A stretch of DNA of 64,000 nucleotides from an uncultured Candidatus Bathyarchaeia archaeon (GTDB lineage Archaea; Thermoproteota; Bathyarchaeia; Bathyarchaeales; Bathyarchaeaceae): the NCBI GenBank assembly GCA_964503065.1, contig CAZCYX010000001.1, positions 5,804 through 69,803 of the forward strand. The letters are read 5' to 3'. The number at the start of each line of letters is the position of its first letter. Position 1 is the first letter of the stretch. Shown here piece after piece: positions 10,103-51,916 of the stretch. A model generated the notes under the pieces. That model saw only the letters and a program-made list of their open reading frames with translations, searched no databases and was not told the origin of the DNA. The position numbers were made by a program, and so were the translations under genes.

Positions 10103-10422
10103 GGCGGTGGGTCTCAGGCGGGGGGCTAGGGGTCCCCTGAACCATAAACCCTCTACATGATGGGCCGAAATCCAAGACGAGGCGTCAAAGAACGTAAAGT
10201 CCCTCAGCCTTCTGACCATGAACATCCGTCCCTTACGGCTGGCGGTCACAGAGCAGCCTTCGTAGGAAGACTGTCAACTGGGTTAACCAGGCGAACCTGG
10301 CCAGGCCCGGGAGGGAGCAACCTAAACTTGGACGTTCAGCGCTTAAGGGGGTGCGGATACGAGTAAAGAGATTGAAGGGGCTTTGCGAAAACTGGACGTC
10401 GACTCTCGGTGATCCACCGCCC
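10103..10422 (+). ncRNA. ffs: signal recognition particle RNA (archaeal 7S/SRP RNA)
   Basis: The 5' GGCGGTGG pairs with the 3' CCACCGCC. The helix-8 signature CCAGGCCCGGGAGGGAGCAAC parallels the CAGGUCCGGAAGGAAGCAGC of E. coli 4.5S RNA. About 320 nt, GC-rich island in AT-rich DNA, followed by TTTT. Confidence 0.85.
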
Positions 10423-14616: not shown

Positions 14617-16993
14617 ATGAAGAAGATGTTCTGGCTCTTGGATGTTAATTATGAGGTGAAAGACCATAAACCAGAGATGTGGATTTGGGGCATTGATGAT
14701 GAAGACAAACGAATCCTTATCATTGACCGAAATTTTCTTCCTTACTTCTACTTGGTTGCAGAGCAGAAGGAAAACCCCCAACTGATAATAGAAACAATTA
14801 GGTCACATGAGGCGGATTATCCGTTAATCAAGAAATTAGAACCCACAAATCGAAGATTCTTTGGCAAACCTGTGAATGCGATTAAGGTTGTTTGCCAAGA
14901 TCCAAATGTTGTATCGAAATATGCGAGGTCTCTTAAAAAAGTTGAAGGCATCAAAAACTGTCTTGAAGATGCCATCCGCTATTCTATGCGTTATCTGATA
15001 GACAATAACGTTATTCCGTGCAGCTGGCACGAGGTAGAAGTTGAAGAGATAGAAAACAATCTGGAAGTGCAAGTTGACAAAGTATACCTCGCTAAAACAT
15101 CTCCAAGAACTATTGAAAAACCTGAAGTTCCCGAACTAAGAATCTTAGCCTTTTCAACAATCTCATACAGTCGTCAAGGCGCACCAAAGCCAGAAAGAAA
15201 TCCTGTTGTTATCATTTCAGTATGTACAAATGTTGGAGATGAGAAACAGTTTGTGGCGAAGGACTCAGATGACAAAACTGTGATTGAATTCTTCTTAAAG
15301 TATGTTCGTGGTTTTGATCCCGACATCATTGCTGGTTATGGCATCAACCGACAAGACTGGCCCTATCTCCTATCTCGATCTAAAAAATTGAGTGTCAAAC
15401 TTTCTGTGGATAGGGCGAATACTGAGCCTCACACAAGTGTTTATGGCCCACATATCCATTACTGGACGAGCAAACATGGACTTCTTCGATTTTGCAGATG
15501 AACTCCCTGAAGTGAAGATAAAGACTCTAGAAAACATAGCAGACTTTCTCGGCGTCGTGAAGATTGAGAAACGCACCTTAATCGAAGACATCGACTTCCC
15601 TAGCTATTGGGAGAATCCAGAAAAGCGTTCTACTTTCCTGAAGTTTTCCCGAGAAAACACTCAGTCAATAATGGGAATCACCAAAGCCATGTTAGATTTC
15701 GCCATGCAGTTGTCCAGTCTTGTTAGTTTACCTCTAGATCATGTAGGAACTGCAGCAATTGGCTTTAGGGTTGAATGGTATCTAATCAAAGAGGCATACA
15801 AAATTGGTGAACTTGTACCAAAAAGGATAGAACGCCCTTATATTCCCTATGTAGGCGCTATAGTTTTGAAACCCAAACCTGGGGTTCATGAAAACGTTGC
15901 TGTTCTCGATTTTAAGGCTATGTACCCTAACATTATGATAACTGAGAATCTTTCACCCGACACTTACGTTTCCCCATCAGAGCCTGAACCATTGTGTGGC
16001 GTAAACATTGCCCCAGAAGTGAAACATAGATTCCGCAAAGAACCAGCTGGCTTGTATAAAGAGGTACTGTCAAGCCTTATTGGCGTAAGAGATGAGATCC
16101 AACTGAAAATGAAGAAACTTGACCCAAAAACCCCTGAATACCGAGTCTTAGATGCCCGCCAAAAAGCTGTAAAAGTGATCACCAACGCTTCTTACGGTTA
16201 TACAGGGTGGATAGGCGCACGATGGTACATAAAACCTGTTGCAGAAGCAGCAACCGCATGGGGTCGCCACTCCATTTTATACACAATAGAGTTAGCAAAG
16301 AAAATTGGATTAGAAGTCATATATGGTGACACTGACAGCATTTTCGTGAAGTATGAACCCAACAAAGTCGAAAAACTTTCCACAATGATTACTGAGAAAT
16401 TTGAACTTGAGATAAAGCCTGATCAAATCTACGTCCGCATCTTATTCACAGAAGCCAAAAAAAAGTATTGCGGACTTTTGCCAGATGGACGCCTAGATAC
16501 GGTGGGTTTAGAAATGGTAAGGGGAGACTGGACGGAAGTAGCGAAGAACGTGCAGAAAAGAGTGCTGGAAATAATACTTAAGGAACAAACTCCACAGAAG
16601 GCAGCACAATTTGTAAGTCAATTTATCTCTGATCTAAGGGAAAAAACGGTTCCTTACAAGGATCTCGTTATATGGAAAACACTTACCAAACCAGTTGAAG
16701 AATACGCTGTTAAGGCTCCCCATGTTGAAGCCGCAAAAAAGCTAATGGAAGAAGGGTGGGAGTTATCGTTAGGCGATAAAATTGGCTATGTCATTGTTGT
16801 GGGGTCAGGGCGTTTATATGAAAAAGCTAAGCCATATGTTTTAGCTTCTTACGATGAGGTTGACATTGAATACTACGTGTCTAATCAGGTGGTGCCAGCT
16901 GCATCTCGAATTTTAATCCTATTCGGCATATCAAAAGATGCGTTACTGCCTTCTAAGACTCCAAAAACTCTCTCTGAGTTTGTAGGAAATTAA
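14617..16993 (+). pseudogene. polB: family B DNA polymerase, reading frame broken by one extra nt in a CCC run near 15445-15449 (true pseudogene, recoding or assembly error unresolved)
   Basis: Two overlapping ORFs (14617-15501 and 15392-16993). Deleting one C gives ...TEPHTSVYGHISITGRANMDFF..., matching the exo-domain hairpin of archaeal PolB. Polymerase motifs are intact: DFKAMYPN, KVITNASYGY, YGDTDS, KKKY. Confidence 0.85.
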
Positions 16994-38220: not shown

Positions 38221-38926
38221 CTACAACCTTTGTCCATACCTTCCAGTCAAAGGCACAAAAGCAACTCCACCTAAATTCTCTTCCAAAATCTGGTCATCCC
38301 TCTTCCTAACACGCACAAGCGTCTGATAGAGATACATGCCTCCAACTGGGATTACCAGAACTCCGCCAGTTTTCAACTGCTCTACCAAAGGCTTAGGAAC
38401 GTCGGGAGCCGCTGCAGTAACCAAAACACGGTCGTAAGGTGCCTCTTCCGGGTATCCTAAGGAACCGTCTCCACAAATCACTGTGATGCGGTCGCCGTAT
38501 CCAGCCTTCTCAATATTTTTCTTTGCAAACTCGGCTAGTTGAGAGACAATTTCCACACTGTAAACGTGGCCCCATCTATCTTTAGATGCATCTCTTGGAG
38601 CAACAATCTCCGCTATAGTGGCAGCGTGCCAACCTGACCCAGCTCCAACCTCTAACACCTTATGTCCCATTTCTAACTCTAAGACCTCATCCATGATGGA
38701 AACCATGTTTCGCCCGACTGATCTTAGTCGGTCAGTCGTGAGGCGCAGAAATCGTTTGTCCCCATCCAATTGGAAGAGGTGAATCCACCGCCGCATAAGA
38801 CCTCACGTTTTCGGGAAGAAAAGCATCCCTAGAAACCACTCGCATCGCCTTAATCACATTAGGTGAACGAAGAATACCTTCTCTTATTAACCTCTCAACT
38901 AGTTCCTCCCAGTCCTTTTTCTCCAT
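38221..38926 (-). CDS. pcm: protein-L-isoaspartate O-methyltransferase, interrupted by a 31-nt BHB-type insert (exon 1 38740-38926, exon 2 38221-38708)
   Basis: ORF 38732-38926 ends ...PIGWGQTISAPHD*. ORF 38221-38796 contains MVSIMDEVLELEMGHKVLEVGAGSGW... Joining after removal of 38709-38739 gives 675 nt (224 aa) with the family motif GQTISAPHMV. Confidence 0.85.
38709..38739 (-). other. putative bulge-helix-bulge (BHB) intron in a protein-coding mRNA
   Basis: RNA reads UG[CGCC](UC|A)[CGACUGA]CCGACUAAGA[UCAGUCG][GGCG](AA|A)CA. That is a 4-bp central helix, two 3-nt bulges on opposite strands and a 7-bp intron stem. Cutting after the 2nd bulge nt removes 31 nt and restores the frame. The insert carries an in-frame UGA. 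Confidence 0.7.
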
Positions 38927-51815: not shown

Positions 51816-51916
51816 TGGCGGGCCCGTCGGGAATTGAACCCGAGACCTACGGGTTAAGAGCATCAGCCTAGCACTGTTGGCTAGTCCGCCGCTCTCCCTT
51901 GCTGAGCTACGGGCCC
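51816..51916 (-). tRNA. tRNA-Lys (anticodon CUU) with 24-nt intron at position 30/31 and encoded CCA
   Basis: Manual fold: acceptor GGGCCCG/CGGGCCC, D arm GCUC/GAGC, T arm UCGGG-UUCAAUU-CCCGA. After intron removal the anticodon arm is GCGGG-CUCUUAA-CCCGU. Confidence 0.85.
51862..51885 (-). other. BHB intron of tRNA-Lys
   Basis: AGAG[CGGC](GG|A)[CUAGC]CAACAGU[GCUAG][GCUG](AU|G)CUCU forms a strict hBHBh' motif. Confidence 0.8.

What the first reader, a model, noticed from the sequence alone, without database searches (positions are those of the whole stretch)
38706..38747. Putative BHB (tRNA-type) intron interrupting the protein-coding gene pcm
The pcm gene is split into two overlapping ORFs in different frames. 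Reading the minus strand, the conserved motif GQTISAPH is followed by 31 nt (gactgaccgactaagatcagtcgggcgaaac, or shifted by up to 2 nt) and then MVSIMDEVLELEMGHKVLEVGAGSG. The insert and flanks fold into a bulge-helix-bulge motif. It has a 4-bp central helix CGCC/GGCG, 3-nt bulges UCA and AAA on opposite strands, each 3' of its central-helix strand, and a 7-bp intron stem CGACUGA/UCAGUCG with a 10-nt loop. The outer helix is weak (UG/CA). Cutting after the second nucleotide of each bulge removes exactly 31 nt (38709-38739). The exons then ligate to ...CCU C|AC AUG..., giving APH|MVS and one continuous 224-aa PIMT. The same cut geometry, applied to the tRNA-Lys intron in this window, yields a perfect anticodon stem, so the rule is internally validated. 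The insert carries an in-frame UGA, so unspliced mRNA would encode only 64 aa. To my knowledge, endonuclease-spliced introns in archaeal protein-coding genes are established only for cbf5 of some Crenarchaeota. A pcm intron would therefore be a new case, and possibly a regulatory splice.
Basis: partly seen in the sequence, partly recalled or inferred. Interest (0 to 1): 0.9.

Follow-up and report, generated by a model that had tools for sequence, protein, structure and literature searches.

The report
tRNA-type intron inside archaeal pcm gene
The protein-repair gene pcm of this Bathyarchaeia archaeon is interrupted by a 31-base bulge-helix-bulge intron of the kind normally found in tRNAs; the same intron sits at the same codon in more than 100 related genomes, which would make pcm only the second archaeal protein gene family known to need this splicing.

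Summary
On the minus strand, pcm is split into a 64-aa ORF ending ...GQTISAPHD* and a second ORF starting MVSIMDE.... They are separated by 31 nt (38709-38739) that fold as a 4-bp helix CGCC/GGCG, 3-nt bulges UCA and AAA, and a 7-bp inner stem.

A single sequence is weak evidence, because BHB-like motifs are common by chance in the window. Comparison is decisive:
- 115 distinct pcm genes carry an insert of 22-50 nt at exactly this codon. Most are Bathyarchaeia; one lineage is labelled Ca. Baldrarchaeum.
- The stems differ in sequence but stay paired. All 7 inner pairs and one central pair show compensatory changes.
- Cutting after the second bulge nucleotide always rebuilds ...SAPH|M.... In several species the conserved His codon exists only after that cut.
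- Intronless close relatives read exactly the predicted ligated junction.
- 93 of 95 complete genes are intact after in-silico splicing.
- The window's tRNA-Lys(CUU) intron follows the same rule.

The best explanation is an EndA/RtcB-spliced intron, of the same kind as the crenarchaeal cbf5 intron. I found no paper describing it. Splicing itself has not been shown, and a regulatory role has no support. I rate it a new member of a known kind.

The parts
38740..38926 (-). pcm exon 1 (ATG 38926-38924 to C38740, the first base of the His codon); 62 codons plus 1 nt
   Evidence: Searches give the ORF. One search shows that gene callers report it as a separate 64-aa PCMT fragment. One search shows it aligns to PIMT structures.
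38709..38739 (-). 31-nt bulge-helix-bulge intron (ACGACUGACCGACUAAGAUCAGUCGGGCGAA). It is phase 1, lying between bases 1 and 2 of the His codon of the SAPHM motif.
   Evidence: fold; homologous inserts and covariation; intronless relatives equal the predicted junction; unique in the window.
38221..38708 (-). pcm exon 2 (A38708 C38707 complete the His codon; AUG 38706-38704; stop codon ends at 38221)
   Evidence: Searches show it is called as a 161-aa protein (P0060). One search confirms the alignment.
38742..38745 (-). Central 4-bp helix, 5' strand CGCC. This is exon sequence: Ala codon bases 2-3 plus Pro codon bases 1-2.
   Evidence: 100% paired in 14 sequences, with G-C changed to A-U twice and to G-U once; 110 of 115 are CGCC/GGCG and 3 are CACC/GGUG.
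38711..38714 (-). Central 4-bp helix, 3' strand GGCG (intron 3' end)
   Evidence: Same as above.
38739..38741 (-). 5' bulge UCA; predicted cleavage between C38740 and A38739
   Evidence: bulge in the MFE structure; the second bulge nucleotide is C in all 115 sequences. The cut rule is stated for cbf5 in PMC2738675.
38708..38710 (-). 3' bulge AAA; predicted cleavage between A38709 and A38708
   Evidence: the bulge is A-N-A in all sequences. (junction in intronless relatives).
38715..38738 (-). Intronic helix h' (CGACUGA 38738-38732 paired with UCAGUCG 38721-38715) and its 10-nt loop (38731-38722)
   Evidence: all 7 pairs have compensatory changes and 95.9% of cells are paired; pairs 1-6 are 86-100% paired over 115 sequences, with 112 distinct inner sequences.
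38746..38747 (-). Exonic outer helix h, 5' strand UG. It pairs with CA at 38707-38706. It is weak, only 2 bp.
   Evidence: the G-C pair is invariant, but U-A is present in only 6 of 14. RNAalifold does not predict this helix. In most relatives the motif is therefore a relaxed HBh' type.
51819..51916 (-). tRNA-Lys(CUU) gene with a 24-nt BHB intron (51862-51885) at the non-canonical position 30/31. It serves as an internal control for the cut rule and shows the organism must have BHB splicing.
   Evidence: Rfam tRNA, 49.6 bits; sequence; ARAGORN -i; the spliced form folds as a perfect cloverleaf.

Best explanation
The 31 nt at 38709-38739 (minus strand) are a bulge-helix-bulge intron in the pre-mRNA of pcm, which encodes protein-L-isoaspartate O-methyltransferase.

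Shown from sequence:
- The last bases of exon 1 (CGCC, from the Ala-Pro codons) pair with the 3' end of the intron (GGCG). This 4-bp helix is flanked by 3-nt bulges, closed by a 7-bp intronic stem on the inner side and by only 1-2 bp on the exonic side.
- The structure is conserved by covariation in more than 100 homologous genes.

Inferred from the established archaeal tRNA and cbf5 splicing pathway:
- The splicing endonuclease EndA cuts after the second nucleotide of each bulge. In TACK and Asgard archaea this is the broad-specificity (alpha-beta)2 form.
- The RtcB-type ligase then joins the exons and circularises the intron.

Shown in silico:
- Ligation recreates the split His codon (C|AC) and gives ...GQTISAPH|MVSIM..., a 224-aa enzyme.
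- Unspliced RNA can yield only a 64-aa fragment, plus possibly a 161-aa fragment from the internal AUG.

The intron is old within Bathyarchaeia and has been lost precisely in some sublineages. Its loop carries no conserved sequence, so I see no function beyond being spliced. A regulatory role is possible but has no support.
For: 1. Anatomy and cut rule. The same rule applied to the window's tRNA-Lys intron gives a perfect tRNA. The rule matches what was verified by cDNA for cbf5 (PMC2738675).

2. Homologous inserts at the same codon. They occur in 14 GTDB species genomes, including the complete genome of Ca. Bathyarchaeum tardum.

3. Covariation.
- 93.4% of cells are paired, and 0 of 500 shuffles reach this.
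- Sliding the register drops pairing to 21-37%.
- All 7 inner pairs and 1 central pair have double changes.
- RNAalifold independently predicts the 4-bp helix, 3-nt bulge and 8-bp stem.

4. Intron lengths are 22-50 nt. Only 19 of 115 are multiples of 3, and all 19 contain in-frame stops. Within a single 90%-identity cluster of a soil clade there are 22/23/25-nt (frameshifting) and 24/27-nt (in-frame) variants. The insert therefore cannot be meant for translation.

5. The predicted splice gives SAPHM in all sequences. His is present in 317 of 320 homologs. In L005, L014, L015 and L020 the His codon exists only after the predicted cut.

6. Intronless relatives about 90% identical at protein level read GCGCCTC|ACATGGT, which is exactly the predicted junction.

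7. 93 of 95 complete genes are intact after in-silico splicing. The spliced product aligns gap-free to 1JG1 and 2YXE.

8. The insert is not an artefact. An independent assembly is identical. The Baldrarchaeum-type locus is on at least 13 contigs from several samples.
Against: - There is no transcript, cDNA or enzymatic evidence. Everything is inferred from DNA.
- The exonic outer helix is only 2 bp in the window and 1 bp in most relatives. The substrate is therefore a relaxed BHB and needs a broad-specificity EndA. No EndA or RtcB gene lies in the window, and I did not verify the EndA type in this genome.
- BHB-like motifs are frequent by chance in the window, and single-sequence folding z-scores are modest.
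- Only 77 of 115 homologs give the exact motif as the single-sequence MFE.
- Some variants are in frame and stop-free, so they could in principle be translated with a 7-9-aa insertion.
Confidence: 0.9

Rival explanations
1. EndA cleaves at the BHB but the exons are not ligated. The 3' product starts ACAUGG... and is translated as a nearly leaderless mRNA into the 161-aa methyltransferase core. The 62-aa N-terminal piece is made separately or lost. On this reading pcm is a post-transcriptionally split gene.
For: Exon 2 always starts one codon before an AUG. Gene callers readily call the 154-161-aa ORF. The 161-aa part holds the Rossmann fold.
Against: - The AUG is the conserved Met of SAPHM and is also present in intronless genes, so it is not a special start codon.
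- The second nucleotide of the 5' bulge is C in all 115 sequences. It has a coding role only if it is ligated to AC to make His.
- Exon 1 remains an intact ORF with conserved motifs in 93 of 95 genes.
- Intronless descendants equal the ligated product.
Confidence: 0.04
2. The gene is simply broken. A hairpin-forming 31-bp insertion inactivated pcm (pseudogene), or the two ORFs make two polypeptides that associate, with no RNA processing at all.
For: The genome annotation and gene callers treat it as two ORFs. The same contig also carries a frameshifted PolB, so gene disruptions or sequence errors do occur on it.
Against: - The insert is conserved at one codon in 115 distinct genes from many samples, and both exons are under evident purifying selection.
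- The stems covary.
- A synonymous site in the Ala codon is constrained and compensated by the intron: GCG/GGCG versus GCA/GGUG. In 9 intronless Bathyarchaeia genes the same position takes all four bases.
- Insert length varies out of frame among near-identical genes.
- None of this is expected for a pseudogene or for a protein-level split.
Confidence: 0.03
3. The gap is crossed during translation by ribosomal bypassing (as in phage T4 gene 60) or by programmed frameshifting over the hairpin.
For: A stable hairpin and a stop codon (UGA) lie just after the putative take-off codon. This superficially resembles gene 60.
Against: - There are no matching take-off and landing codons in the correct frame. 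Landing of tRNA-His on CAU (38707-38705) would continue in the wrong frame (sequence).
- In L005, L014, L015 and L020 there is no His codon before the gap at all.
- The gap varies from 22 to 50 nt.
- The conserved features are exactly those of a BHB (4-bp helix plus 3-nt bulges), which bypassing does not require.
Confidence: 0.01
4. The 31 nt are an assembly or sequencing artefact of this contig.
For: The source is a metagenome-assembled contig. A probable 1-nt error or frameshift exists in PolB.
Against: An independent Logan assembly of DRR045396 is 100% identical over 2494 bp, including the insert. Homologous inserts occur in more than 100 other assemblies, including complete genomes.
Confidence: 0.005

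Closest known systems
BHB intron in the cbf5 (pseudouridine synthase) pre-mRNA of Crenarchaeota (Watanabe et al. 2002; Yoshinari et al. 2006; Yokobori et al. 2009, PMC2738675)
   Same: - A short intron (cbf5 16-44 bp; pcm 21-50 nt) inside a protein-coding gene.
- A mostly relaxed BHB motif.
- Cleavage between the 2nd and 3rd bulge nucleotides.
- Phase 1, splitting the codon of a highly conserved residue (Asp in cbf5, His here).
- Some length variants are in frame.
- Too small to encode anything.
- Lineage-specific precise losses.
- Routinely mis-annotated as a frameshift or as two ORFs.

   Different: - The host gene differs: pcm, a protein-repair methyltransferase, rather than an RNA-modification enzyme.
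- The host lineage differs: Bathyarchaeia plus a Baldrarchaeum-labelled lineage, rather than Desulfurococcales and Sulfolobales.
- cbf5 splicing has cDNA and in vitro EndA evidence. The pcm intron has none yet.
Archaeal pre-tRNA BHB introns at canonical and non-canonical positions (Marck & Grosjean 2003), including the tRNA-Lys(CUU) intron in this window
   Same: The architecture is the same: exon sequence pairs with the intron 3' end to form the 4-bp helix, there are two 3-nt bulges, and an intronic stem-loop follows. The cut rule is also the same.
   Different: The context is an mRNA coding region, not a tRNA body. The exonic helix h is 3 or more bp in the tRNA-Lys intron but only 1-2 bp in pcm. 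Splice accuracy is read out as a reading frame rather than as an anticodon stem.
BHB element in the 5' UTR of Haloferax volcanii HVO_1309 mRNA (Schwarz et al. 2020, PMC7714728)
   Same: It is an mRNA substrate of the archaeal splicing endonuclease.
   Different: That element lies in the untranslated leader of a euryarchaeon with an alpha'2 enzyme and does not interrupt the coding frame. The pcm intron interrupts a codon.
Ire1/RtcB unconventional splicing of HAC1/XBP1 mRNA in eukaryotes
   Same: Both are spliceosome-independent. A protein endonuclease cuts at RNA stem-loop structures inside a coding region, a tRNA-type ligase joins the exons, and the reading frame changes. This comparison rests on general knowledge and PMC13149111.
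   Different: The endonuclease is different (Ire1, not EndA) and so is the recognition motif. XBP1 and HAC1 splicing is a regulated stress switch, and nothing here shows regulation.

Membership tests
Archaeal bulge-helix-bulge (EndA-type) intron | A 4-bp central helix flanked by two 3-nt bulges on opposite strands, each 3' of its helix strand | tested here: met
   CGCC/GGCG with bulges UCA and AAA. The helix is conserved and 100% paired with compensatory changes. 110 of 115 homologs have CGCC/GGCG and 3 have CACC/GGUG.
Archaeal bulge-helix-bulge (EndA-type) intron | An intronic closing helix h' of at least 2 Watson-Crick pairs | tested here: met
   7 bp in the window. All 7 pairs covary. Pairs 1-6 are 86-100% paired in 115 sequences.
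Archaeal bulge-helix-bulge (EndA-type) intron | An exonic closing helix h of at least 2 Watson-Crick pairs (strict hBHBh' form) | tested here: inconclusive
   The window has exactly 2 pairs (U-A, G-C). In relatives only G-C is invariant, and U-A is present in 6 of 14 and 39 of 115. RNAalifold does not predict the helix. Most homologs are therefore the relaxed HBh' form, which is accepted only by (alpha-beta)2 and epsilon2 EndA (PMC5829648).
Archaeal bulge-helix-bulge (EndA-type) intron | Cutting after the 2nd nucleotide of each bulge and ligating gives a functional mature RNA | tested here: met
   The cut restores SAPH|M in all sequences. 93 of 95 complete genes are intact. The junction equals that of intronless relatives. 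The product aligns gap-free to PIMT structures.
Archaeal bulge-helix-bulge (EndA-type) intron | Actually cleaved by EndA and ligated by RtcB in vivo or in vitro | not testable with these tools
   No transcript data were accessible. No spliced-length protein of this organism is in the protein collection.
Archaeal bulge-helix-bulge (EndA-type) intron | The host encodes a splicing endonuclease able to process relaxed motifs | not tested
   No EndA or RtcB was found among window ORFs of 150 aa or more. There are two indirect indications: the window's tRNA-Lys gene requires BHB splicing, and the literature places (alpha-beta)2 EndA with the specific loop in TACK and Asgard.
cbf5 pre-mRNA intron family (Crenarchaeota) | The intron is located in the catalytic Asp codon of cbf5 | tested here: not met
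   The host gene here is pcm (PF01135). It works like the cbf5 intron but is not homologous by position or gene.
Self-splicing group I / group II intron | A ribozyme core of hundreds of nucleotides | tested here: not met
   The insert is 22-50 nt. There is no Rfam intron hit in the window.
Translational bypass (T4 gene 60 type) | Matched take-off and landing codons that restore the frame | tested here: not met
   No in-frame matching codon pair exists in the window. Several homologs have no His codon before the gap.

The most novel reading that the evidence does not exclude
The pcm intron may be more than a tolerated passenger, in one of two ways.

(a) It could be a regulated splice. Production of the protein-repair enzyme would then depend on the activity of the RNA-repair and splicing enzymes EndA and RtcB, making it an archaeal analogue of HAC1/XBP1.

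(b) It could be an ancient or laterally homing intron shared between TACK (Bathyarchaeia) and Asgard (Baldrarchaeia) lineages. That would make it the oldest or the first mobile protein-coding BHB intron known.

The evidence does not exclude either. The same site and a similar UAG.../...CUA stem occur in a Baldrarchaeum-labelled lineage whose Pcm does not nest within Bathyarchaeia.
Probability: 0.12. Interest if true: 0.92.

Novelty: new member of a known kind. Interest (0 to 1): 0.8.

Why it matters
Since 2002, the only confirmed endonuclease-spliced intron in an archaeal protein-coding sequence has been the cbf5 intron of some Crenarchaeota. Reviews up to 2025 still cite only that case.

A second gene family changes the picture from a curiosity to a recurring phenomenon of archaea with broad-specificity EndA. 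This one is in a different and globally abundant lineage, is conserved in more than 100 genomes, and shows clear covariation and gain/loss dynamics.

Practical consequences:
- pcm is mis-annotated in public databases. It appears as two ORFs (64-82 aa plus 154-161 aa), or as a full-length protein carrying a spurious 7-9-aa insertion.
- The intron is a natural readout of EndA and RtcB fidelity on an mRNA.
- It is directly testable. A cultivated carrier with a complete genome exists: Ca. Bathyarchaeum tardum M17C-01, CP122380.1, locus L010.
- It is a clean case for studying precise intron loss in archaea.

Tried and rejected
1. Generic BHB scan of the window for further mRNA introns. It was far too unspecific: 3634 raw hits, of which 230 merged ORFs. 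It flagged the PolB split ORFs (14617..15501 and 15392..16993). Sequence inspection and a gap-free alignment of the merged protein to PDB 5mdn show a plain 1-nt frameshift, not an intron.

2. Search for EndA, RtcB or cbf5 in the window by Pfam annotation of about 50 of the 54 listed ORFs of 150 aa or more. None was found.

3. Search for direct evidence of spliced transcripts.
- No full-length protein identical to the spliced product exists in the protein collection.
- Apparently full-length proteins in the soil clade turned out to be read-through of in-frame, stop-free introns, not spliced forms.

4. A look-up of the PolB N-terminal ORF in other assemblies returned nothing.

5. ARAGORN in default mode misses the intron-containing tRNA. 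Intron mode finds it.

6. Repeat or mobile-element origin of the 31-mer. It has a single copy in the window.

7. Literature searches combining BHB with isoaspartate, isoaspartyl, Bathyarchaeota/Bathyarchaeia, mRNA, frameshift or TACK found no description of a pcm intron. The library lacks most subscription journals, so an existing report cannot be excluded.
Full report
OBSERVATION

Reading the minus strand, an ORF starts at ATG 38926 and runs 64 codons to ...PIGWGQTISAPHD, stopping at UGA (38734-38732). A second frame contains AUG 38706-38704 followed by MVSIMDEVLELEMGHKVLEVGAGSG..., and ends at the stop at 38221. Both halves are protein-L-isoaspartate O-methyltransferase (PF01135).

Between His (CAC, 38740-38738) and Met there are 31 extra nucleotides. 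The element has these parts:
- Outer pairs: U38747-A38706 and G38746-C38707.
- Central helix: CGCC (38745-38742) with GGCG (38714-38711).
- Bulges: UCA (38741-38739) and AAA (38710-38708).
- Inner stem: CGACUGA (38738-38732) with UCAGUCG (38721-38715).
- Loop: 10 nt.

RNAfold gives the central helix, 3-nt bulge and inner stem as the MFE structure, at 50% of the ensemble for a 51-nt stretch. It does not give the outer helix.

Cutting after the second nucleotide of each bulge removes 38739..38709. The joined sequence is CCU C|AC AUG, a 675-nt CDS of 224 aa. The product aligns without a gap across the junction to the solved PIMT structures 1JG1 and 2YXE (...GQTvSAPHMVaIM...).

The 31-mer occurs once in the window. 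It is present, with 100% identity over 2494 bp, in an independent Logan assembly of run DRR045396.

IS IT MORE THAN CHANCE?

On this sequence alone the case is not strong. Folding z-scores are only -1.8 and -2.1. My crude BHB scanner found 3634 BHB-like arrangements in the 64-kb window, and 230 of them would fuse two open frames. The case rests on where the motif sits, which is exactly at a frame break inside the most conserved PIMT motif, and on comparison with relatives.

INTERNAL CONTROL

Rfam finds a tRNA at 51819-51916(-) with a 29-nt unaligned insert. The sequence forms GAG-CGGC-GG|A-CUAGC-loop-GCUAG-GCUG-AU|G-CUC. This is a canonical hBHBh' motif at the non-canonical position 30/31.

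ARAGORN in intron mode calls tRNA-Lys(CUU) with a 24-nt intron. Removing 51885..51862 by the same rule of cutting after the second bulge nucleotide gives a perfect cloverleaf. The organism therefore needs BHB splicing, and the rule is validated locally. The same rule was confirmed by cDNA for cbf5 (PMC2738675).

RELATIVES

The closest uninterrupted Pcm proteins are about 73% identical and come from Bathyarchaeia.

A scan of GTDB species genomes with the spliced protein returned 80 loci.
- tblastn shows the match broken at residue 62/63 with a frame change in L012, L013, L014, L015, L017, L020, L022, L029 and L047.
- L002, L005, L009 and L010 carry in-frame inserts with stop codons at the same place.
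- L024 also has the insert.
- L010 is the complete genome of Ca. Bathyarchaeum tardum M17C-01. L047 is labelled Ca. Baldrarchaeum yapensis.

All have the same plan: GC[G/A]CC, a 3-nt bulge, a variable stem-loop, GG[C/U]G, A-N-A, then CAUG.

About 105 of the 119 matches are genuine pcm inserts and about 10 are chance hits. Together with the genome loci there are 115 distinct intron regions with 112 different inner sequences. Lengths are 22-50 nt, with a mode of 31.

COVARIATION

On the 14-sequence alignment A1, my stated structure performs as follows:
- 93.4% of cells are paired, against 76.9 +/- 1.6% in shuffles; 0 of 500 shuffles reach the observed value.
- Pairing falls to 21-37% when the 3' partner is slid by 1-3 columns.
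- All 7 inner-stem pairs show double (compensatory) changes.
- The central helix is 100% paired.
- The exonic G (third base of the Ala codon) changes to A twice, each time matched by C to U in the intron. It pairs with U once.

RNAalifold independently predicts the 4-bp helix, the 3-nt bulge and an 8-bp inner helix, but no outer helix. Over 115 sequences, inner pairs 1-6 are 86-100% paired with 4-8 pair types each.

The outer helix is only an invariant G-C, plus U-A in 6 of 14 or 39 of 115. Most homologs are therefore the relaxed HBh' type. According to PMC5829648, this type is processed only by (alpha-beta)2 or epsilon2 EndA, and (alpha-beta)2 with the specific loop is the form found in TACK and Asgard archaea.

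THE INSERT IS NOT MEANT TO BE TRANSLATED

- Only 19 of 115 lengths are multiples of three, and all 19 contain in-frame stops.
- In a soil Bathyarchaeota clade, one 90%-identity protein cluster contains two kinds of product. There are 154-aa and 81-82-aa fragments; contigs of this clade carry 22-, 23- and 25-nt introns. There are also 232-233-aa proteins that read through a 24- or 27-nt stop-free intron, giving SAPH-VPKKDGRD-MVAIM.
- Length therefore drifts in and out of frame among near-identical genes. This is tolerable only if the segment is removed from the RNA.

THE PREDICTED CUT IS THE RIGHT ONE

- In-silico splicing gives ...GQT[ISAV]SAPHM[VI]... in all 15 genome sequences.
- His is present at this position in 317 of 320 full-length homologs.
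- In L005 (CCA CGG...), L014 and L015 (CCU CUC AGU...) and L020 (CCA CUC GGU...) there is no His codon in the unspliced reading. It arises only by joining ...CC[U/A]C to ACAUG.
- The second nucleotide of the 5' bulge is C in all 115 sequences.
- Intronless relatives within the same subclade (L003, L006, L007, L040) read ...GCGCC[U/C]C|ACAUGGU.... That is exactly the predicted ligation product of their intron-bearing sisters L015, L130, L163, L112, L135 and L152. L015's spliced Pcm is 91% identical to the intronless P0038.
- Of 95 intron-bearing genes fully contained in their contigs, 93 are intact ORFs after in-silico splicing.

DISTRIBUTION AND HISTORY

In a neighbour-joining tree of 184 Pcm sequences (no support values, so tentative), most intron-bearing genes form one large Bathyarchaeia clade.
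- The intronless Bathyarchaeia L001, L003, L004, L006, L007, L008, L040 and L078 nest inside this clade. The simplest reading is one old gain followed by several precise losses, as proposed for cbf5.
- Intronless L011 and L018 fall outside it.
- L047, L082 and L101 group elsewhere, near Asgard sequences.
- L047's best named hits are Asgard and Methanomethylicota proteins at about 65% identity.
- The L047-type locus, called as 71-aa plus 161-aa ORFs, recurs on at least 13 contigs of up to 199 kb from several samples.

Whether this reflects ancient origin, lateral transfer or mis-binning is open.

MECHANISM

Shown:
- the RNA structure, its conservation, and the exact boundaries;
- that removing the segment yields a normal PIMT.

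Inferred from the established archaeal pathway:
- EndA cleaves in both bulges, leaving 2',3'-cyclic phosphate and 5'-OH ends;
- RtcB ligates the exons and circularises the intron;
- unspliced RNA yields a 64-aa product.

The loop has no conserved sequence, so nothing suggests an intron-borne function.

RIVALS

- Pseudogene, or a split at protein level without RNA processing. This is contradicted by covariation, the constrained and compensated synonymous site, out-of-frame length polymorphism and intact exons.
- Cleavage without ligation, with leaderless translation of exon 2. This cannot be excluded without RNA data. It does not explain the invariant C that completes the His codon, or the intronless descendants.
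- Translational bypassing. There are no matched codons in frame, and some homologs have no His codon before the gap.
- Assembly artefact. This is refuted by independent assemblies.

COMPARISON WITH KNOWN SYSTEMS

The closest known system is the cbf5 pre-mRNA intron of Desulfurococcales and Sulfolobales. It is 16-44 bp, usually a relaxed BHB, phase 1 within the catalytic Asp codon, occasionally in frame, lost in some lineages, and often mis-annotated. The pcm intron works like it in every respect I could test. It lies in another gene and another lineage.

Papers from 2020 and 2025 still cite cbf5 as the only coding-region case. The HVO_1309 5'-UTR element in Haloferax is the only other mRNA substrate mentioned. 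Eight full-text searches found nothing linking pcm or isoaspartate methyltransferase to a BHB intron. The library lacks most subscription journals, so prior description cannot be ruled out.

VERDICT

My confidence that this is a genuine EndA-type intron removed from the RNA is 0.9. The regulatory suggestion is unsupported. I classify it as a new member of a known kind, with high interest for archaeal RNA processing, genome annotation and intron evolution. It is directly testable in a cultivated carrier.

Noticed in passing
window 14617-16993 (+), break near 15440-15446: The family-B DNA polymerase is split into two overlapping ORFs in different frames: 294 aa (exonuclease domain) and 533 aa (polymerase domain). 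This is a plain 1-nt frameshift in GGCCCAC. The merged protein ...EPHTSVYG|HISITGRAN... aligns gap-free to PDB 5mdn, so it is not an intron. It is either a sequencing or assembly error or a real frameshift.
   Followed up: yes
window 51819-51916 (-), intron 51862-51885: tRNA-Lys(CUU) carries a 24-nt canonical hBHBh' intron at the non-canonical position 30/31. The default ARAGORN run reported no tRNA in the whole window. Only Rfam and ARAGORN's intron mode find it. CCA is encoded (51816-51818).
   Followed up: yes
P0241, P0335, P0337, P0338, P0340, P0344, P0359, P0245, P0248; locus L207: In a soil Bathyarchaeota clade, some pcm introns are 21, 24 or 27 nt and stop-free. Databases therefore hold 'full-length' PIMTs with a spurious 7-9-aa insertion (SAPH-VPKKDGRD-MVAIM, SAPH-GSSAGRY-MVAIM). 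Near-identical genes with 22/23/25-nt introns are called as 81-aa plus 154-aa fragments.
   Followed up: partly
L047 / L202-L206 (JAEOSH010000045.1 and at least 12 other contigs): A lineage labelled Ca. Baldrarchaeum yapensis (Asgard) carries a 32-nt intron at the same pcm codon, with central helix CACC/GGUG. Its neighbours include ribosomal protein L38e, a presenilin homologue and PAC2. Its Pcm does not nest within Bathyarchaeia. Binning and taxonomy were not verified.
   Followed up: partly
L129 and L166: These two intron-bearing pcm genes still have premature stops after in-silico splicing (85 and 109 codons downstream of the junction instead of about 165). They may be real pseudogenes or assembly errors.
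   Followed up: no
L087 (Ga0190367_1000217): This is the longest pcm intron seen: 50 nt, with a 15-bp inner stem. It comes from the same hydrothermal sample that also holds the Baldrarchaeum-type locus.
   Followed up: no
L058 (Methanobacteriaceae MAG CAVPON010000011.1): This pcm homologue matches in two overlapping tblastn segments in different frames (residues 3-56 and 33-221). The break is not at the SAPH|M site. It is probably a frameshift unrelated to the intron.
   Followed up: no
window 10105-10419 (+): Archaeal SRP RNA (Rfam RF01857, 160.5 bits), full length and apparently not permuted or interrupted.
   Followed up: no
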